Under the pieces are notes generated by a model. The model was not told where the DNA came from, did not search any database, and was given only the letters and a program-made list of their open reading frames with translations. A stretch of DNA of 25,860 nucleotides from a virus (Duplodnaviria; Heunggongvirae; Uroviricota; Caudoviricetes), in IMG/VR virus record IMGVR_UViG_3300045988_049160. One strand, 5' to 3'. The position numbers were made by a program, and so were the translations under genes. Numbering within the stretch: position 1 is the stretch's first letter; each line of letters starts with the position of its first letter. Shown piece by piece: positions 836-7,411 of the stretch.

Positions 836-938
836 GTTAAATCTCCAGATAGTCGCAGCACCCGTTGCGCCGCATATCTGGTTATTCTATTACCTGAAAA
901 ACCATATATGGATAAAAAGACTATAAATACCAATAGAT

Positions 939-955
939 ATTACCTTTCGGGTAAT
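939..955. promoter_or_regulatory. Putative operator, inverted repeat ATTACC-TTTCG-GGTAAT (copy 1 of 5)
   Basis: Perfect 6-bp inverted half-sites with a 5-bp spacer, in the divergent intergenic region between the tailspike start (835) and the small antirepressor-like gene (1031). Confidence 0.45.
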
Positions 956-991
956 TTGCAAAACGTGCTGGATAGCAAACAAATTATTTGT

Positions 992-1011
992 TACTGTATA
1001 AACATACAGTT
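992..1011. promoter_or_regulatory. LexA (SOS) box, TACTGTATAAACATACAGTT
   Basis: CTGT-N8-ACAG with AT-rich spacer, close to the E. coli LexA consensus TACTGTATATATATACAGTA; sits about 20 bp upstream of the RBS/ATG of the 1031..1288 gene. Confidence 0.6.
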
Positions 1012-1030
1012 ATTGCATGGAGAAGATAAG

Positions 1031-1288
1031 ATGCAGCAGTATCACTATCCACTGGAAGACGGATTTACCGAAAGGATTCACACGCCGGGAGGCGTCAGGT
1101 CACTGGTGGAGGGATCGCACTTGATGAAATTACTCCGGGATCTCGATAAGGATGGATTTAATGTCGATGGCCCACTTGCCGAACTGACTGCACTGATTAA
1201 CTACGTCACCAGCTCACAGATGTCTATGCAGGATCTGCAAACACATCTCGACTATTGTGCCGAACAATTACGAAAACAAACCCGGTAA
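1031..1288 (+). CDS. Small (85 aa) antirepressor-like protein, paralogous to the C-terminal domain of the Bro-N antirepressor at 2435..3127; putative SOS-inducible antirepressor
   Basis: Internal ATG at 1031 preceded by GGAGAAG RBS; the annotated 908 start would put the operator and LexA box inside the coding sequence. IHTPGGVRSLVEGSHLMKLLRDLDKDGFNVDGPLAELTALINYV...DLQTHLDYCAEQL aligns by eye with IHSPSGVLGLTENSLLMNLLNQLQDDGHDVSGAAAELTTMFCYI...DIQTHAEYINDK of the larger protein. Confidence 0.55.
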   Translation: MQQYHYPLEDGFTERIHTPGGVRSLVEGSHLMKLLRDLDKDGFNVDGPLAELTALINYVTSSQMSMQDLQTHLDYCAEQLRKQTR

Positions 1289-1294
1289 ATTTAA

Positions 1295-1312
1295 AGGCCG
1301 CAAGAGCGGCCT
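1295..1312. terminator. Hairpin AGGCCGC-AAGA-GCGGCCT between convergent genes, likely bidirectional terminator (stronger for the minus strand)
   Basis: 7-bp GC-rich stem; on the minus strand it is followed by TTTAAATTT; overlaps the stop codon of the 1311..2039 gene. Confidence 0.4.
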
Positions 1313-2039
1313 ATCGTTTCGCTTTGTGCTCGTCCCAGCACGTTTTGCACCATGCCATTAAGCCGTCCGCATTTTGATTATTAGGGTAAAAGCTGGTCCG
1401 TTTTCTGCGGACATTACAAATTGGGCACCACTTCATATGGCGTGTATTCTTTGGGCCATCGAGACACCTTGCACACCACTTAGTCAATCCATCTGGATTT
1501 TTTGACGATTTCCGGAATTTGTCATATGGAAGGTTTATTCTGCATCGCAAACACTGCTTGCGGCCACTTGAAACTCTGTTAGCTGATTCTTCTTTTGGCG
1601 GCGATACAGAAGGTATTCTTGCTGGCTCTGATACTGCCTGAGGTGCTTTTTTAGATGACTGAGACGATATGTCATCACCAGGGAATCTTCCATGATATGC
1701 CGGACGCGTTGACACTCCAGGTGGAAGCTCAGCTGTAAACGGCTTTGGCTGAATCAGTTGCCTCTCTTTTGCTAACTCCTGCTGTTTATAATATGTCTGG
1801 ATTACCGCACTATCATAAGCAGGAGGTGCGGAAATATTAGGCGCATTACCTCCAGTTTTTTGAAACTGAGTAGAGGTGTGTTCTATCACCTGTGTACGAT
1901 TAATCGTTATCTCCCCATCTTCGGTCTTTATCGTTTTGTTATGATTAACGACCGTACGATCAGAGATCTTAGTCTTGTTCTGGTTGATAACGTAAATAAT
2001 CACCGCAACCACACCAACAACTATCCAGAAAACTTCCAT
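1311..2039 (-). CDS. Membrane-anchored protein with N-terminal transmembrane helix, Pro-rich linker and two tandem C4 zinc-ribbon repeats; function unknown
   Basis: 242-aa ORF; N-terminus MEVFWIVVGVVAVIIYVI is hydrophobic; C-terminus has two Cys-x2-Cys pairs repeated twice (CLRC...NPDGLTKWCARC and CPIC...NADGLMAWCKTC). GAGGAAAA RBS upstream of the ATG at 2039. Confidence 0.5.
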   Translation of the reverse strand: MEVFWIVVGVVAVIIYVINQNKTKISDRTVVNHNKTIKTEDGEITINRTQVIEHTSTQFQKTGGNAPNISAPPAYDSAVIQTYYKQQELAKERQLIQPKPFTAELPPGVSTRPAYHGRFPGDDISSQSSKKAPQAVSEPARIPSVSPPKEESANRVSSGRKQCLRCRINLPYDKFRKSSKNPDGLTKWCARCLDGPKNTRHMKWCPICNVRRKRTSFYPNNQNADGLMAWCKTCWDEHKAKR

Positions 2040-3248: not shown

Positions 3249-3575
3249 ATGAGCAGAAGATATGTCAAGGAGCTGGCTATAGAGTCTGGCACCCCTTTGG
3301 GTATCGTTCCTGGCTCCAACTATGCCAAGGCTTTAAACCGAGACTCTGTCGTCAAAGTTATATCAAGAGACATGAATATGGTCGGAGACGATCTCAGACG
3401 GTCAGAAAATCGTGTTTATGCTGAATATATAGTAAAGAACGGAAAAAAAATTGCAGCGCCTGCTGGCGGAAAATGGGCAATAGTGACAGGGAAAAACTCA
3501 AATGCAAGAGGAAAACCAGAAGCTAAAGGAATGTCCTTCGACAAATATGCAAAAATCTATTGGGCAACCAAGTGA
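3249..3575 (+). CDS. Hypothetical protein (108 aa), first gene of a small operator-controlled operon
   Basis: ATG at 3249 with GAGG RBS 5 nt upstream (the track start at 3234 is a TTG). No recognisable motif. Confidence 0.45.
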   Translation: MSRRYVKELAIESGTPLGIVPGSNYAKALNRDSVVKVISRDMNMVGDDLRRSENRVYAEYIVKNGKKIAAPAGGKWAIVTGKNSNARGKPEAKGMSFDKYAKIYWATK

Positions 3576-4050
3576 TAACGAAGAAACTGAGTTCGAGGAA
3601 GTTGAGGAAGGGCTAAGTAACGAGATCATTCAACACCCAGATGCCTTCACAAGAGTTCTTGATCGCCCTGAAATTCAGGAGATAGTTGTCGCTCACCATG
3701 CGTTTCAGGGTCCGCTTCCTCCCCCCTATCTGCTTCGCGGGTATCAGGATATTTTACCTGATGCCCCCGAACGCATCTTCCAGCTGACGGAGAAGGAGTT
3801 TGCTCACCGCCAGAAAATGGAGGAAAAGGCACTTGACGGGGCTATTAATAGAGATAAACGTGGGCAGTGGTTTGGCCTGAGTGCAACTATTTTTACAGTA
3901 GCTTGTGCAACATTATTAGGTTTAACAGGTCATGAAGTTCTAGCTGGCACAGTGATCGGTACAGTTGTTGCAGTGGCTGGTATTTTCGTTCTTAGACAAA
4001 AACCAAGCATCAAGAAGAAATCTGAAGACAACAAACCTGAAGAAAAGTAA
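3502..4050 (+). CDS. Membrane protein, DUF2335-like (two C-terminal transmembrane helices); start uncertain (3502 or 3547)
   Basis: ORF overlaps the preceding gene in another frame; motif GPLPPPYLLRGYQDILPDAPERIF...EKEFAHRQKMEEKALDGAINRDKRGQWFGL followed by hydrophobic segments fits remembered DUF2335 phage membrane proteins. Confidence 0.45.
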   Translation: MQEENQKLKECPSTNMQKSIGQPSDNEETEFEEVEEGLSNEIIQHPDAFTRVLDRPEIQEIVVAHHAFQGPLPPPYLLRGYQDILPDAPERIFQLTEKEFAHRQKMEEKALDGAINRDKRGQWFGLSATIFTVACATLLGLTGHEVLAGTVIGTVVAVAGIFVLRQKPSIKKKSEDNKPEEK

Positions 4051-4071
4051 GCCCGCGCTGCGGGCTTTTTT
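4049..4071 (+). terminator. Rho-independent terminator (GCCCGC-GCT-GCGGGC followed by TTTTTT)
   Basis: GC-rich stem immediately after the stop codon at 4048-4050, followed by a T6 run. Confidence 0.6.
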
Positions 4072-4143
4072 GTGGACGAAACAAAAGTCAGTGCTACACT
4101 CATTGACGCCACATTGAGGTGGCTTATAGATGGAAATGTCACA

Positions 4144-4305
4144 ATGAAAAAAGCATTTGCTGCACTGTTCGTTTTGTTGTCTCTGGTAGCTTCAACTCAG
4201 GCCTTTGCCGGTCGTTGTCAGCACGACAGCGATACTGCCGCTGACGGCTCCCGCTGCGGTGGGCGTTCTGCGGATTCCCGCCCGGGCGGCGGTGGCATTC
4301 GTTAA
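4144..4305 (+). CDS. Small secreted peptide (53-aa precursor; predicted signal peptide MKKAFAALFVLLSLVASTQAFA; about 31-aa mature peptide with two Cys and Gly/Arg-rich tail)
   Basis: Internal ATG at 4144 of the 4072..4305 ORF; promoter-like TTGACG-17-ATAGAT upstream; own terminator downstream. Confidence 0.4.
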   Translation: MKKAFAALFVLLSLVASTQAFAGRCQHDSDTAADGSRCGGRSADSRPGGGGIR

Positions 4306-4327
4306 AAACAAGGCCGCGAAAGCGGCC
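4306..4327 (-). terminator. Rho-independent terminator ending the minus-strand late operon (hairpin GGCCGC-GAAA-GCGGCC, T-run on minus strand)
   Basis: Perfect 6-bp stem with GAAA loop at 4312-4327; the minus strand then reads TTGTTTTTAAC. Confidence 0.6.
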
Positions 4328-4328
4328 T

Positions 4329-4340
4329 GTGACATGTCAC
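4329..4340. repeat. 12-bp perfect palindrome GTGACATGTCAC (copy 1 of 4), overlapping the lipoprotein stop codon and adjacent to the terminator
   Basis: Exact sequence; identical copies at 21728-21739, 22120-22131 and 24386-24397. Confidence 0.8.
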
Positions 4341-4717
4341 GCAACGCAATTATTACCGCGCCATGTAACATTTTTAATAATCTTATCAGCACCAAACTCA
4401 ACGTAAACAGAGCAACTGAAATGGAGTGTATAACCGCCATCAGTTGTTGCGTATGTGTTTGAATATATAGTATTACCAATTAGATTAGACGTAGTATTAT
4501 ACGTTGTGGTTTGTGGTACGTTATAACTACCAGAGCTTGAGTAAACATACACTCTGTTTCCATCTGGAGATGTAAGCTCTCCCTGAGGATACCCCCACTG
4601 CTGAACCATTGCGTCTATACTCTGCCCGCGCCACGTAAGCATATTTCTTTCAAACTGTGCAGCTGACTGGCATCCAACGAGAAGCATAAATCCAAAAATC
4701 AAAAATACTTTTCTCAT
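4337..4717 (-). CDS. Lipoprotein (lipobox LLVGC), Thr/Ser/Tyr-rich mature domain; function unknown (candidate exclusion or lysis-associated lipoprotein)
   Basis: Internal ATG at 4717 gives MRKVFLIFGFMLLVGCQSA..., a classic signal peptide plus lipobox Cys; last gene before the operon terminator. Confidence 0.55.
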   Translation of the reverse strand: MRKVFLIFGFMLLVGCQSAAQFERNMLTWRGQSIDAMVQQWGYPQGELTSPDGNRVYVYSSSGSYNVPQTTTYNTTSNLIGNTIYSNTYATTDGGYTLHFSCSVYVEFGADKIIKNVTWRGNNCVA

Positions 4718-4802
4718 AATTACCCCTATCATGGAAAAACAGCACCAATCCACAAATTAACTAGTTATTTTATTATTCTTCCGAACAATACAATTCCGAA
4801 TA

Positions 4803-4925
4803 CTACAAAGCCGAACCATGCCGCTGCACGCAACAGAGATTCCAATTGAAACCCATTTTTATCAAAATGTATGAATAGCATAAAAACGCTGCACATATTA
4901 GTACAATAAAAGTTATTTGAACCAT
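4803..4925 (-). CDS. Small hydrophobic peptide (about 40 aa, one predicted transmembrane helix); alternative to the 62-aa ORF called in another frame
   Basis: ATG at 4925 (and 4928) is preceded by AAAAGGAG; translation MVQITFIVLICAAFLCYSYILIKMGFNWNLCCVQRHGSAL. The track ORF 4765..4953 has no RBS for any of its Met codons. Confidence 0.3.
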   Translation of the reverse strand: MVQITFIVLICAAFLCYSYILIKMGFNWNLCCVQRHGSAL

Positions 4926-4936
4926 CATATCTCCTT

Positions 4937-7411
4937 TTATTGCGGAGTGACATCCTGTGGTCGCCACCAGTATGTCTGGTTAAACTCTTTCTTCGAACGT
5001 TGCTCCATTTTACGCAAATAGCCTGGTGAAAAATACTCCTGCATCTGGTTAAAGATCATGTGATCGAGAGCCGCCTTCAAGTACCAGAGATTCGCACCAG
5101 GCATCAAACCTTTCCCCAGCTTCACCAGATCACCACCAGTCTGCTCACTCTTCCCTTCCACAGCATTTAACGGTATGCCCTGAGCAATCTTCACTACGTC
5201 ATCAACCAGACCAGCTACCGGGCCAAGCATCGACGCCAGCGCGCCGCTTCCGTACCTAGTGTGATCTGACAATAAAAAGTCACCGTAAAGGCCAAGACCA
5301 CCACCTTTCAGTAGAGCACCAAGCCAGAATTTTGCGGCATCTTCTCCTGTCATCTCTCGAGGATTACGACCAGACGCAAGGTCGTTAAGTTGCTGCGACA
5401 AAGCGCCAAGAATGGTCGTACTGGCAATAAACGTCGCAATATATGCCGCACGCCCACCAGCAGACGGCATACCCATAGCGCGTGACCAGTGACGCATAAC
5501 AACCGAGATAGGGAACGATTTAAACAGGAAAACACTTCTCGTTAATTCACCTTTCCATGTTCCACGCTGAATACCAGAACCGGTTATCAGTTGCTCACGT
5601 GCTCCCGGTGTAATAACAGCCATATCAACTTCTTCAGTTACGGCACCGAGCAGTTTACGCATTGCCTCAAATTTCACGCGTTCAGGCTCACCAAGATGTT
5701 TAACTGCTGAATCAGGGATACGCATAATGCTTTCCGGTGTCAGCATCGTATTATTACCGTTCCCCCAGTCCTCCTGTTTCGCCAGCTTCCATACGCTCCA
5801 GTCTGTGTCAGTAATCCCTTTGCTTTTCAGGATACGAAAATCAGAGTCATCGAGGCTACGAAGGTCTGGTGTCCGTGACACTACTTCTCCCAGGCTTCCC
5901 ATCATGGTTACGCCATAGGCGCGCTTGTGCGCATCTGACCATGCTGTAAGCCCACTGGCACGCATTACCGCCGTTGCCGCCCAACGAGACACTGACGGCC
6001 CCATATTATCCATCGCCCAGCGGTTAACGCTGCCAAGTAGAGATTCCATCGCCAGACCAGCGCGGCGCGCCCGCGCAAGTTCTGTACGGTTCGTTGGGTC
6101 CATAGCTTCAAGCTGGTTGCGGAATAACTGGTTCATTGGAAGGTTGGTAACCTTCGCAGACAGATACATGGTTCCAAGATCAGAGAACGATGACAGCAAC
6201 GCGGATCCGAGTCTGCTGGCAACCAGCCAGTTGCGGATATTGTCAGACCATCGCGCGATGTGCGGATTCGCTACAGGCTGTGTCTTTCCGGAAATAAAGT
6301 TGTACAGATTCTCTGTGTTGTTCGCCAGCCGCTCGACTTTACCGGTTTTACTCGGGTTAGCTGTTGCCGTTTCTGCCTTCACCTGATCAAGAAGAGAGCG
6401 GAAAACATGATCGGGGTTTGGGCCATATGTTTCCACCAGTGCAATATCTTTACTGATACCTTCCAGGTGACCGACCATGATTTCCCATAGAGAGCGATCG
6501 CCATAAAGTTGCTGATATTGCAGATAGGAATCTGCATCTTTGAAATGTATCTGTCGTGATGCATTACCACGGTTAGCACGTGCGCCGGAAATTCGCATTC
6601 CGGTATCAGTAAGCTTATTCAGCCCACCAGTAGCGATCGTGTTATAAGCCTCTCCAAGAAATGAAGACAACTCGGCATCGTTCATCAGTTGTCCATCGGC
6701 TCGGATATAATATTTGCGATCCAGCTTACCTATAACATCGCTAACCCACTTATCCTTTGATACTGCCCCAACCTTTTCCATAGAATGATGTTGAGGGATC
6801 CCCCAGTTTTCGAGATAGCCAATGTCCCCACCAGCATCATTAAACCGGCGGCGCAGCAGCTCTGTAACTTCTCTCCACGCCTTAGCACCGTTTCTTGCTT
6901 TAGCATTGCCAGTATTTTGCCCCCGCATTTCATATACCAGGTCACGTACGCCCGCTTCATCTTCAAACAGACCAAAAAAGCGAGGATCAACTGCTTCGAA
7001 TGCCTCCTGCAATTGACTCAATGCATAATCACGGGTGGCTTTTGTTCTGGATTCAACAGAGAGGAAATTAGATTTACCGTCTGCATTAAAAGCTATAGTA
7101 CGGTTAAGAGCGCCAAGTTTCCCATCAGCCCCTTGATAGCTATTGATAAATTTATCCAATCTCTGACGCGCGGCTATAGTGAGAGCCACACGACGTTTCT
7201 TTAATGCCGCTTCTCGCTGTAATTCTTCAGATGCCAATTGTGCTGCTCGATATAGCCGCTCTGATTCGGAAAGTTGTCGCCACGACATAGGGTCATCACG
7301 AGCAATGGAGCGCATATTTCGATAAATGCGGTCTTCAATGTTCTGTATTTCTCGCGCCGTTAACATGCGCTGCGCCGCCTGCTGAACCGCTTGTATACAT
7401 TCCTGTCTCAT
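4937..7411 (-). CDS. Internal virion / DNA-ejection protein, C-terminal region resembling T7 gp16 (internal virion protein D)
   Basis: 824-aa ORF, translationally coupled to the upstream gene; C-terminal segment VFLFKSFPISVVMRHW...ALSQQLNDL...GPVAGLVDDV resembles the remembered T7 gp16 C-terminus (VMQFKSFTIKSLNSKF...). Confidence 0.5.
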   Translation of the reverse strand: MRQECIQAVQQAAQRMLTAREIQNIEDRIYRNMRSIARDDPMSWRQLSESERLYRAAQLASEELQREAALKKRRVALTIAARQRLDKFINSYQGADGKLGALNRTIAFNADGKSNFLSVESRTKATRDYALSQLQEAFEAVDPRFFGLFEDEAGVRDLVYEMRGQNTGNAKARNGAKAWREVTELLRRRFNDAGGDIGYLENWGIPQHHSMEKVGAVSKDKWVSDVIGKLDRKYYIRADGQLMNDAELSSFLGEAYNTIATGGLNKLTDTGMRISGARANRGNASRQIHFKDADSYLQYQQLYGDRSLWEIMVGHLEGISKDIALVETYGPNPDHVFRSLLDQVKAETATANPSKTGKVERLANNTENLYNFISGKTQPVANPHIARWSDNIRNWLVASRLGSALLSSFSDLGTMYLSAKVTNLPMNQLFRNQLEAMDPTNRTELARARRAGLAMESLLGSVNRWAMDNMGPSVSRWAATAVMRASGLTAWSDAHKRAYGVTMMGSLGEVVSRTPDLRSLDDSDFRILKSKGITDTDWSVWKLAKQEDWGNGNNTMLTPESIMRIPDSAVKHLGEPERVKFEAMRKLLGAVTEEVDMAVITPGAREQLITGSGIQRGTWKGELTRSVFLFKSFPISVVMRHWSRAMGMPSAGGRAAYIATFIASTTILGALSQQLNDLASGRNPREMTGEDAAKFWLGALLKGGGLGLYGDFLLSDHTRYGSGALASMLGPVAGLVDDVVKIAQGIPLNAVEGKSEQTGGDLVKLGKGLMPGANLWYLKAALDHMIFNQMQEYFSPGYLRKMEQRSKKEFNQTYWWRPQDVTPQ

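What the first reader, a model, noticed from the sequence alone, without database searches (positions are those of the whole stretch)
4337..4928. Lipoprotein and small hydrophobic peptide appended to the end of the virion operon
After the gp16-like gene, the operon ends with a ~40-aa single-helix peptide (best start 4925, with AAAAGGAG RBS) and a 126-aa lipoprotein with a textbook lipobox. No endolysin is visible, so these are not an obvious complete lysis cassette; they could be superinfection-exclusion or receptor-masking factors, or parts of a lysis system whose other components lie elsewhere. The peptide reading frame is ambiguous: two overlapping frames both encode hydrophobic peptides.
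Basis: partly seen in the sequence, partly recalled or inferred. Interest (0 to 1): 0.5.

Follow-up and report, generated by a model that had tools for sequence, protein, structure and literature searches.

The report
Prophage accessory lipoprotein plus decayed membrane peptide
The last two reading frames of the virion operon of an epsilon15/phiV10-like E. coli prophage are a swappable accessory cassette: an intact outer-membrane lipoprotein of unknown function, probably an envelope or anti-superinfection factor, and the frameshifted remnant of a small two-helix membrane peptide. This is an ordinary kind of prophage cargo whose function has not been tested.

Summary
The window is a Uetakevirus (epsilon15/phiV10-like) prophage, with the phage's forward direction on the window's minus strand.

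- **Lipoprotein (4717-4337).** A real gene under purifying selection (dN/dS about 0.1), with a lipobox conserved in all homologues and a predicted globular two-helix, six-strand fold. It belongs to phrog_3716 and to a large bacterial lipoprotein family that has no Pfam model.
- **Where it sits.** In all 22 lipoprotein-bearing viral contigs it lies just after the gp17-like virion gene, and in none of the loci examined does it lie in a lysis cassette. The lysis cassette lies about 7 kb further on, outside the window.
- **The two overlapping hydrophobic frames.** They are one gene broken by a 1-nt deletion. Intact 52-54-aa two-helix homologues cover frame A's N-terminus and frame B's C-terminus.
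- **The slot.** It is low in GC and holds at least four alternative envelope-protein cargoes. It matches the position of P22 sieA.

Superinfection exclusion or entry blocking is the most likely function (about 0.35-0.4) but is untested. This is a new member of a known kind and of modest interest.

The parts
4937..7411 (-). gp17-like large virion (presumed ejection) protein, 824 aa. It is the left, conserved flank of the cargo slot.
   Evidence: phrog_684 'virion structural protein', E = 0. Homologue of phiV10 gp20 and epsilon15 gp17. Third-codon-position identity rises to 0.65-0.75 in the last 40-60 codons. The 'ejection protein' label is my inference by analogy with T7 and P22.
4931..4936 (-). 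Shine-Dalgarno sequence AAGGAG of the small-peptide gene
   Evidence: Read directly from the sequence. It lies 5 nt before the ATG at 4925 and 2 nt before the ATG at 4928.
4869..4928 (-). 5' part of the decayed two-helix peptide gene, in frame A: start codons to ...AAFLCYSY, which is transmembrane helix 1
   Evidence: Aligns with the N-terminal halves of the intact homologues P0038 and P0039.
4864..4868 (-). Frameshift site: A followed by a T4 run, one nucleotide short compared with the intact homologues
   Evidence: Single-column gap in DNA alignment A2 (TACA-TTTTGA versus TATGCCTTCGA).
4765..4866 (-). 3' part of the decayed peptide gene, in frame B: FDKNGFQLESLLRAAAWFGFVVFGIVLFGRIIK plus the TAA stop. 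This is the loop and transmembrane helix 2.
   Evidence: Aligns with the C-terminal halves of P0038/P0039 and with helix 2 of the 57-aa peptide in the alternative cassette.
4803..4928 (-). The literal frame-A ORF, 41 aa from 4928 or 40 aa from 4925: native helix 1 followed by an out-of-frame tail of about 19 aa.
   Evidence: It is not annotated by PGAP in near-identical prophages.
4718..4764 (-). Intergenic spacer carrying the lipoprotein's Shine-Dalgarno sequence (AGGGG, 4727-4723)
   Evidence: Read directly from the sequence.
4337..4717 (-). Lipoprotein gene, 126 aa. Signal peptide at 4717-4673, lipobox LVGC with the Cys16 codon at 4672-4670, and Gln at position +2.
   Evidence: phrog_3716 at E 5e-64. 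37 homologues, with Cys16, Cys102 and Cys124 invariant. dN/dS about 0.1. AlphaFold2 mean pLDDT 84.
4329..4340 (.). Perfect 12-bp palindrome GTGACATGTCAC, overlapping the lipoprotein stop codon. It forms the right-hand junction shared by all cargo alleles.
4304..4328 (-). Intrinsic terminator of the virion operon: stem AGGCCGC/GCGGCCT followed by TGTTTTT
   Evidence: The same sequence is present in phiV10 and annotated there as a terminator.

Best explanation
**Shown**
- Positions 4337-4936 are the variable accessory-gene slot at the 3' end of the gp15-gp16-gp17-like virion operon of a Uetakevirus prophage.
- The slot is bounded by the conserved end of the gp17-like gene on one side and by a palindrome plus terminator on the other.
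- The slot holds two things:
  - A pseudogenised copy of a roughly 54-aa inner-membrane hairpin peptide with two transmembrane helices. A 1-nt deletion at about 4868/4867 splits it between two frames.
  - An intact lipoprotein gene that is under purifying selection, low in GC and horizontally mobile.

**Inferred from sequence rules**
- The lipoprotein is exported by Sec, lipidated on Cys16 and cleaved by signal peptidase II.
- It presents a globular two-helix, six-strand domain, stabilised by a Cys102-Cys124 disulfide, to the periplasm.

**Inferred function (probability about 0.35-0.4)**
- It is not a virion or lysis component. It is an envelope-acting accessory factor.
- It binds a conserved periplasmic or outer-membrane partner and blocks entry of superinfecting phages. 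It may also protect progeny from ejecting their DNA on cell debris.
- In this it would act like T5 Llp or phi80 Cor. It occupies the same genomic position as sieA in P22.
For: **Phage identity and layout**
- Near-identical DNA occurs in phage vB_EcoP_ZX5 and in 34 complete E. coli genomes.
- The portal and the GP7 capsid protein are confirmed.

**The slot is a cassette site**
- 80 viral loci anchored on the gp17-like gene fall into four cargo alleles: a 46-aa two-helix peptide; a 57-aa two-helix peptide plus a 98-aa membrane protein; the window type; and the lipoprotein alone.
- Epsilon15 gp18 and SPN1S_0020 are two-helix peptides in the same place.
- The cassette has 34-40% GC against 49.5% in its flanks.

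**The peptide is frameshifted**
- P0038 and P0039 are intact and span both frames.
- The DNA alignment shows a 1-nt gap.
- Variant L130 has a 26-nt deletion. Variant L136 has lost the ATG at 4925.

**The lipoprotein is real and mobile**
- It lies directly after the gp17-like gene in 22 of 22 viral loci. Those gp17-like genes belong to two lineages only 28% identical to each other, while the lipoproteins stay 79% identical.
- It is independent of tailspike type.
- It survives intact beside guaA in a decayed Enterobacter prophage.

**Fold**

**Analogies**
- P22 sieA lies between gene 16 and gene 9 and targets ejection proteins (PMC10883804).
- T5 Llp is an outer-membrane lipoprotein that binds FhuA.
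Against: - No exclusion phenotype, binding partner or expression data exist for this family.
- No convincing sigma-70 promoter lies upstream. Where the gene follows the gp17-like gene by 8-11 nt it is probably co-transcribed late, so expression in lysogens is unproven.
- It has no sequence similarity to any annotated exclusion or defence family in PHROGs or PADLOC.
- The family has more than 3,700 50%-identity clusters, found mostly in varied non-phage genomic neighbourhoods with no conserved neighbours. Its ancestral role is therefore a general cell-envelope one.
- One E. coli genome has two copies of the spacer (not followed up). If these are two prophages, that would argue against strict exclusion of phages of the same type.
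Confidence: 0.45

Rival explanations
1. Host-fitness or virulence conversion factor. The lipoprotein is expressed from the prophage and changes envelope physiology for the bacterium's benefit (stress tolerance, serum resistance), like lambda Bor, rather than acting on phages.
For: - It is retained intact in a decayed prophage remnant next to guaA in Enterobacter.
- It belongs to a large cellular lipoprotein family.
- It has the low GC content typical of a moron.
Against: Lysogeny by ZX5, which carries an identical cassette, had no significant effect on growth, stress response, biofilm, antibiotic sensitivity, adhesion or invasion, serum resistance or mouse virulence (PMC9782041). No promoter was detected.
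Confidence: 0.15
2. Late-acting helper of the phage's own cycle. It is made only with the virion operon and acts on the outer membrane or periplasm late in infection, for example by modulating BAM or the peptidoglycan link, timing envelope breakdown or shaping release. It would not act as an exclusion factor.
For: - It lies in the same orientation as the late operon, 8-11 nt after the gp17-like gene in most relatives, before the operon terminator.
- It shows a weak fold resemblance to BamE.
- In Raoultella and in L133 its start overlaps (ATGA) a conserved two-helix membrane protein of about 100 aa, suggesting a two-protein module.
Against: - It is dispensable. phiV10, epsilon15, SPN1S and phiv142-3 lack it and carry other cargo in the slot.
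- A complete holin-endolysin-spanin set exists elsewhere.
Confidence: 0.15
3. Part of a lysis system. The lipoprotein is an o-spanin-like component and the small peptide is a holin, antiholin or i-spanin-like partner.
For: The pairing of a membrane peptide with an outer-membrane lipoprotein superficially resembles Rz/Rz1. The peptide is small and hydrophobic.
Against: - Homologues never occur in lysis cassettes.
- The group's spanins are assigned to the Bcep176 family in the lysis cassette (annotation). The near-identical prophage SY033 carries a DUF2514 Rz-like gene there.
- The mature lipoprotein is a 110-aa folded domain, not a short proline-rich chain.
- The peptide gene is broken.
Confidence: 0.04
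4. The small ORF is functional as it stands. Either the 40-41-aa frame-A peptide (helix 1 plus a novel tail) or the frame-B product is made and active. Alternatively the full hairpin is restored by ribosomal frameshifting.
For: - A strong Shine-Dalgarno sequence and ATG are retained.
- The allele is identical in 34 genomes and in the viable phage ZX5.
- In L130 a 26-nt deletion rejoins the start codon to frame B.
Against: - The near-identity of the copies gives no evidence of selection.
- The shift site (C ATT TTG) is not a canonical slippery heptamer (my reading).
- Frame B has no Shine-Dalgarno sequence of its own.
- The L136 variant destroys the ATG at 4925.
- A second lesion, as in L130, is what pseudogene decay predicts, and one deletion in three restores the frame by chance.
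- The lipoprotein occurs alone in many relatives.
Confidence: 0.15

Closest known systems
T5 Llp and phi80/HK022 Cor (phage outer-membrane lipoproteins that block the phage's receptor)
   Same: A small phage-encoded lipoprotein, predicted to sit in the inner leaflet of the outer membrane and to carry a disulfide. It is non-structural and dispensable. The Llp mechanism is described in PMC9586334 and in bioRxiv 10.64898/2026.03.26.714494.
   Different: - No sequence relationship was detected.
- It is about twice as large as those proteins, on my recollection of their sizes; I did not check this here.
- It sits next to presumed ejection-protein genes, not next to the receptor-binding protein gene.
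- It is independent of tailspike type.
- Its target and phenotype are unknown.
P22 SieA
   Same: The genomic position is the same: immediately after the large internal or ejection-protein genes and before the antirepressor region and tailspike (compared). The site varies between related phages.
   Different: SieA is a multi-helix inner-membrane protein with its own promoter. Here the intact product is an outer-membrane lipoprotein with no detected promoter. There is no homology.
BamE / OsmE / BLIP-like small alpha-beta domains (SmpA_OmlA superfamily)
   Different: - No Pfam SmpA_OmlA hit.
- Foldseek E is above 0.1, with TM about 0.5 (target-normalised) and 0.37 (query-normalised).
- The sheet is longer, and the conserved C-terminal GNNC disulfide motif is peculiar to this family.
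Epsilon15 gp18, phiV10 gp21 and SPN1S_0020 (small two-helix membrane peptides after gp17)
   Same: The decayed peptide gene occupies exactly the same position, about 9-10 nt after the gp17-like stop codon, and once repaired it has the same two-helix hairpin architecture.
   Different: Clear sequence homology exists only to P0038/P0039 and to the 57-aa peptide of the phiv142-3-type cassette. The window's copy is frameshifted. None of these peptides has a known function.
Rz1-type o-spanins
   Same: A phage-encoded outer-membrane lipoprotein.
   Different: It is not in the lysis cassette, has no i-spanin partner, is folded and globular, and the phage group already has Rz/Rz1.

Membership tests
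Bacterial lipoprotein (Lgt/LspA substrate) | N-terminal signal peptide with a positively charged n-region, a hydrophobic core, and a lipobox [LVI][ASTVI][GAS]C | tested here: met
   The sequence is MRK-VFLIFGFMLLVG-C. The cysteine is invariant in 20 close and 44 distant homologues. There is a weak LPAM_1 hit.
Bacterial lipoprotein (Lgt/LspA substrate) | Actual lipidation and globomycin-sensitive processing | not testable with these tools
   This needs palmitate labelling or a globomycin assay.
Outer-membrane-sorted lipoprotein (Lol pathway) | No Asp at position +2, which would be the Lol-avoidance signal | tested here: met
   The mature N-terminus is C-Q-S-A. Homologues have Q or A at +2. Localisation itself is inferred from the established +2 rule.
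phrog_3716 (phage protein family of unknown function) | Significant full-length match to the family HMM | tested here: met
   E 5e-64, residues 11-126 against profile positions 1-116 of 116.
o-spanin (Rz1-like) | Gene embedded in, overlapping or adjacent to an i-spanin gene within the lysis cassette | tested here: not met
   It always follows the gp17-like gene. The lysis cassette with a DUF2514 Rz-like gene lies about 7 kb away.
o-spanin (Rz1-like) | Short, proline-rich mature chain that is largely unstructured | tested here: not met
   The mature domain is 110 aa and is predicted to fold as two helices and six strands, mean pLDDT 84.
BamE / SmpA_OmlA (PF04355) | Match to the Pfam family model | tested here: not met
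   No hit at E <= 1 for the window protein, and none among 44 family members.
BamE / SmpA_OmlA (PF04355) | Shared alpha-alpha-beta fold | tested here: inconclusive
Llp/Cor-type receptor-blocking exclusion lipoproteins | Sequence homology to Llp or Cor | tested here: not met
   The only PHROG matches are families of unknown function. PADLOC gives none.
Llp/Cor-type receptor-blocking exclusion lipoproteins | Binds the phage's outer-membrane receptor and confers resistance | not testable with these tools
   This needs plating-efficiency, adsorption and binding assays.
P22 SieA-type exclusion | Position between the ejection-protein genes and the tailspike gene | tested here: met
   compared with PMC10883804.
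P22 SieA-type exclusion | Multi-helix inner-membrane protein homologous to SieA types A-C | tested here: not met
   The product is a lipoprotein with a cleaved signal peptide and no other transmembrane segment.
P22 SieA-type exclusion | Own promoter and expression in the lysogen | tested here: inconclusive
   The consensus scan found only one marginal site (ATGTCA-18-TATGAT, 4953-4924), and it is not conserved in relatives. No transcript data are available.
Two-helix hairpin peptide family (P0038/P0039 and the 57-aa phiv142-3-type peptide) | Full-length collinear similarity covering both helices in one frame | tested here: not met
   Similarity is full-length (68-73% identity) only after one nucleotide is restored. 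As it stands, the similarity is split between two frames. The window copy is therefore a pseudogene member of the family.

The most novel reading that the evidence does not exclude
The slot after the gp17-like gene is a dedicated exclusion-cassette site of epsilon15-like podophages. Its interchangeable cargoes (two-helix inner-membrane peptides, a 98-aa membrane protein, or this outer-membrane lipoprotein) would each jam assembly of an incoming phage's gp15-gp17 trans-envelope DNA conduit, at a different envelope layer. The lipoprotein would then be the first outer-membrane-anchored inhibitor of a podovirus ejection apparatus. It would have been recruited from a very large, uncharacterised bacterial lipoprotein family, and the decay of the neighbouring peptide gene would reflect functional redundancy.
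Probability: 0.2. Interest if true: 0.55.

Novelty: new member of a known kind. Interest (0 to 1): 0.32.

Why it matters
If the lipoprotein blocks phage entry, it would be a simple, portable resistance determinant. It is present in about 0.6% of complete E. coli genomes in this exact form, and in related forms in Salmonella, Klebsiella, Enterobacter and Raoultella. That is relevant to phage therapy against K1 and other pathogenic strains.

It would also give a first functional handle on a lipoprotein family of more than 3,700 50%-identity clusters that has no Pfam model.

The frameshift result has practical value for annotation. Gene callers currently either skip the small ORF or call a spurious 62-aa frame-B protein.

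Otherwise this is ordinary prophage accessory cargo.

Tried and rejected
- **Family libraries.** Pfam, NCBIfam and PADLOC scans of both products gave nothing meaningful. PHROGs gave only families of unknown function.
- **Solved structures.** A profile search of PDB sequences gave only a weak hit to 4h0a (E 0.017). Foldseek against the PDB gave no match at E <= 0.001. The afdb50 library was unavailable.
- **Neighbours of distant homologues.** The genomic contexts of distant cellular homologues (L098-L126) were inspected for conserved neighbours. They are heterogeneous and uninformative.
- **Promoters.** The promoter scan, and my own reading of the AT-rich spacer, gave only marginal candidates that are not conserved.
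- **Programmed frameshifting.** I considered it and rejected it because the shift site is not a slippery heptamer (my reading).
- **Spanin reading.** Rejected.
- **Virion-component reading.** Rejected because the protein has a cleavable lipoprotein signal peptide.
- **O-antigen or primary-receptor masking.** I judge this unlikely, because the same lipoprotein accompanies different tailspikes: GDSL-lipase type, P22-tail type, endosialidase and others.
- **Literature.** Four searches found no characterisation of this family or of phiV10 gp21 or epsilon15 gp18.

Full report
**Context.** The window is a prophage of the epsilon15/phiV10 type (genus Uetakevirus), and the phage's forward direction is the window's minus strand.
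- The region 4100-5100 is 99.6-99.8% identical to phage vB_EcoP_ZX5 and to 34 complete E. coli genomes. Parts of it match phiV10, phiv142-3, TL-2011b and Salmonella SPN1S-like phages.
- Pfam confirms the portal and the epsilon15-type GP7 capsid protein upstream.
- The 824-aa ORF at 7411-4937 is the homologue of phiV10 gp20 and epsilon15 gp17 (phrog_684, "virion structural protein").
- It is the last of three large virion proteins. The first of these carries a lytic transglycosylase domain in relatives. By analogy with T7 and P22, I take them to be ejection proteins. That is an inference.

**Observation.**
- AAGGAG lies at 4936-4931.
- ATG codons lie at 4928 and 4925.
- A 41-aa frame-A ORF ends at 4803.
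- An overlapping frame-B ORF ends at 4765.
- A 126-aa ORF runs from ATG 4717 to TGA 4337 and begins MRKVFLIFGFMLLVGC.
- An intrinsic terminator lies at 4328-4311.

**The lipoprotein is a real gene.**
- It matches phrog_3716 at E 5e-64.
- It has 37 close homologues in Escherichia, Shigella, Salmonella, Klebsiella, Enterobacter, Citrobacter and Raoultella.
- The lipobox cysteine and two further cysteines (C102, C124) are invariant. So are a WGYP motif and a C-terminal GNNC motif.
- Pairwise dN/dS is about 0.05-0.14, with synonymous sites near saturation. The adjacent gp17-like C-terminus gives about 0.02.
- AlphaFold2 predicts, at mean pLDDT 84, two helices packed on a six-stranded sheet.
- Foldseek support is weak, with E above 0.1, and there is no Pfam SmpA_OmlA hit. 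I therefore treat this as a resemblance in fold, not as family membership.
- A full HMMER scan finds 3,702 50%-identity clusters at E <= 1e-3. They lie mostly in varied non-phage genomic neighbourhoods across many phyla, and no Pfam model covers them. The phage gene is thus a captured member of a large, uncharacterised bacterial lipoprotein family.
- Gln at position +2 predicts sorting to the outer membrane. This rests on the established Lol rule and is an inference.

**Position and mobility.**
- In all 22 viral contigs that encode the lipoprotein, and in the isolate genomes examined, it lies directly after a gp17-like gene, usually 8-11 nt downstream.
- Those gp17-like genes belong to two lineages that are only 28% identical to each other, whereas the lipoproteins are 79% identical.
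- The same lipoprotein accompanies different tailspikes: GDSL-lipase type, P22-tail type, endosialidase and others.
- The cassette has 34-40% GC against 49.5% in its flanks.
- In Enterobacter quasihormaechei an intact copy sits beside guaA. Only a degraded remnant of about 120 aa of the gp17-like gene lies upstream of it.

**The slot.** I anchored 80 viral loci on the gp17-like C-terminus.
- The DNA between its stop codon and the shared terminator falls into discrete alleles:

| Cargo length | Contents | Loci |
|---|---|---|
| about 170 nt | 46-aa two-helix peptide (phiV10 gp21 type) | 28 |
| about 501 nt | 57-aa two-helix peptide plus a 98-aa multi-helix protein (phiv142-3 type) | 36 |
| 609 nt | the window type, all identical | 8 |
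| 401 nt | the lipoprotein alone | 1 |

- The remaining seven loci gave no terminator match. Two were cut short by the end of the contig, and I did not classify the cargo of the other five.
- Epsilon15 gp18 (64 aa) and SPN1S_0020 (46 aa) are two-helix peptides in the same place.
- In Raoultella and in L133, a conserved two-helix protein of about 100 aa overlaps the lipoprotein start by ATGA.
- Both flanks are conserved at the nucleotide level. On the left, third-position identity in the last 40-60 codons of the gp17-like gene is 0.65-0.75, against 0.3-0.55 elsewhere. On the right lies the palindrome GTGACATGTCAC followed by the terminator.
- This is the signature of cassette exchange by recombination between conserved flanks.

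**The small peptide.**
They are encoded 9 nt after the gp17-like gene in other contigs.
- Their N-terminal halves match frame A (..AFLCYSY). Their C-terminal halves match frame B (FDKxGF...AAAWFGFVVFG...).
- The DNA alignment shows a single-nucleotide gap in the window at about 4868/4867, which is an A followed by a T4 run.
- The repaired peptide is 68-73% identical to P0038 and P0039 over its full length. It is 37% identical to the 57-aa peptide of the alternative cassette.
- The "two overlapping hydrophobic frames" are therefore helix 1 and helix 2 of one hairpin peptide split by a frameshift.
- The lesion is not a sequencing error. It is identical in ZX5, CE10, SY033 and ten viral contigs and in 34 genomes.
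- Two further variants fit relaxed constraint. L130 has an additional 26-nt deletion that rejoins the start codon to frame B. L136 has lost the ATG at 4925.
- The shift site is not a canonical slippery sequence (my reading).
- I conclude that the gene is most likely a pseudogene. A residual truncated product cannot be excluded.

**Not a lysis component.**
- In the near-identical prophage of strain SY033, two holin-family genes, a GH19 endolysin and a DUF2514 Rz-like gene lie about 7 kb further on. They come after the antirepressor region and an endosialidase tailspike, at the prophage end next to yfgI.
- Epsilon15 has the same layout, with Rz and Rz1 annotated.
- The spanins of epsilon15, phiV10 and SPN1S are classified in the Bcep176 family (PMC6139136).
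- The endolysin is absent from the window only because the window ends before that region.

**Mechanism.**
- *Shown:* a Sec/lipoprotein signal, a folded domain with conserved cysteines, purifying selection, dispensability, and horizontal mobility independent of the receptor-binding protein.
- *Inferred:* an outer-membrane-anchored, periplasm-facing binding protein that acts on a conserved envelope component or on incoming phage ejection proteins.
- *The strongest positional argument:* P22 sieA, which blocks DNA delivery and is escaped by mutations in ejection proteins gp16 and gp20, occupies the equivalent site between gene 16 and the tailspike gene (PMC10883804).
- *The closest mechanistic precedent:* T5 Llp, an outer-membrane lipoprotein that binds FhuA.
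- *Against a host-fitness role:* ZX5 lysogeny changed none of growth, stress response, biofilm, antibiotic sensitivity, adhesion, serum resistance or mouse virulence (PMC9782041).
- *Against lysogen-expressed exclusion:* no promoter was found, and the gene is tightly coupled to the late operon.
- I put exclusion or entry blocking at about 0.35-0.4. A late helper role and a host-fitness role each get about 0.15. A lysis role gets below 0.05.

**Verdict.** This is a new, uncharacterised member of a known kind: prophage accessory envelope proteins held in a swappable slot. Two points are clarified. The peptide is a frameshifted two-helix gene, and the lipoprotein belongs to a very large lipoprotein family with no Pfam model. 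Interest is modest.

Noticed in passing
window 4329-4340: A perfect 12-bp palindrome, GTGACATGTCAC, overlaps the lipoprotein stop codon and immediately precedes the terminator. It is present at the right end of every cargo allele (phiV10, phiv142-3 type, lipoprotein alone). It could be a recombination junction or a protein-binding site.
   Followed up: partly
window 4141-4305 (+): A convergent 54-aa gene encodes a signal peptide (MKKAFAALFVLLSLVASTQAFA) followed by a mature part rich in Gly, Arg, Asp and Ser with two cysteines. It matches phrog_14503, 'membrane associated protein' in the moron category, at E 2e-40, and is annotated in CE10 and SY033 as WP_000708858.
   Followed up: partly
window 3502-4050 (+): A 182-aa DUF2335 membrane protein (phrog_3996, moron category) is one more envelope-directed accessory gene in the same inter-operon region. 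It is followed by a bidirectional-looking hairpin at 4049-4067.
   Followed up: no
window 4937-5120 (3' end of the gp17-like gene): Synonymous-site identity between distant relatives rises to 0.65-0.75 in the last 40-60 codons, against 0.3-0.55 elsewhere. This could be a conserved recombination flank or an embedded regulatory element.
   Followed up: partly
L007 4859-5000 (Klebsiella prophage): The 142-nt spacer between the gp17-like gene and the lipoprotein carries a small hydrophobic ORF on the opposite strand (MKSKMITFFLRLTVLAVFILALNIVIYGIPRIFGMPWI...). This is one more small membrane peptide associated with the slot.
   Followed up: no
L097 4595-5381 (Enterobacter quasihormaechei): An intact lipoprotein gene sits next to guaA, with only a degraded remnant of about 120 aa of the gp17-like C-terminus upstream. 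It is the lone survivor of a decayed prophage at what appears to be the same integration region.
   Followed up: partly
L015 4675-5381; L133 5705-6384: In more distant relatives, a conserved two-helix protein of about 100 aa with a charged C-terminal helix (phrog_21905) overlaps the lipoprotein start by ATGA. This suggests a translationally coupled two-gene module.
   Followed up: partly
L002 9314-12433; L156 10527-13646: Near-identical prophages in K1 strains carry an endosialidase tailspike, so this Uetakevirus lineage is specific for the K1 capsule. The tailspike gene lies outside the window.
   Followed up: no
window 1311-2039 (-) and 908-1288 (+): The left end of the window differs from most relatives. 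It holds a 242-aa protein with an N-terminal transmembrane helix and a Cys-rich C-terminus (weak Stc1-domain hit), and a 126-aa ORF resembling the C-terminal part of the BRO/antirepressor proteins.
   Followed up: no
NZ_CP070111.1 (E. coli FDAARGOS_1301): This genome has two places that match the 223-nt spacer and three that match the 1-kb region. It may carry two prophages with the same cassette in one cell, which bears on whether exclusion of same-type phages could be strict.
   Followed up: no
L136 (IMG/VR contig 3300045988_046105): This variant of the window-type cassette has ATGATGG changed to ATGATAG.
   Followed up: yes
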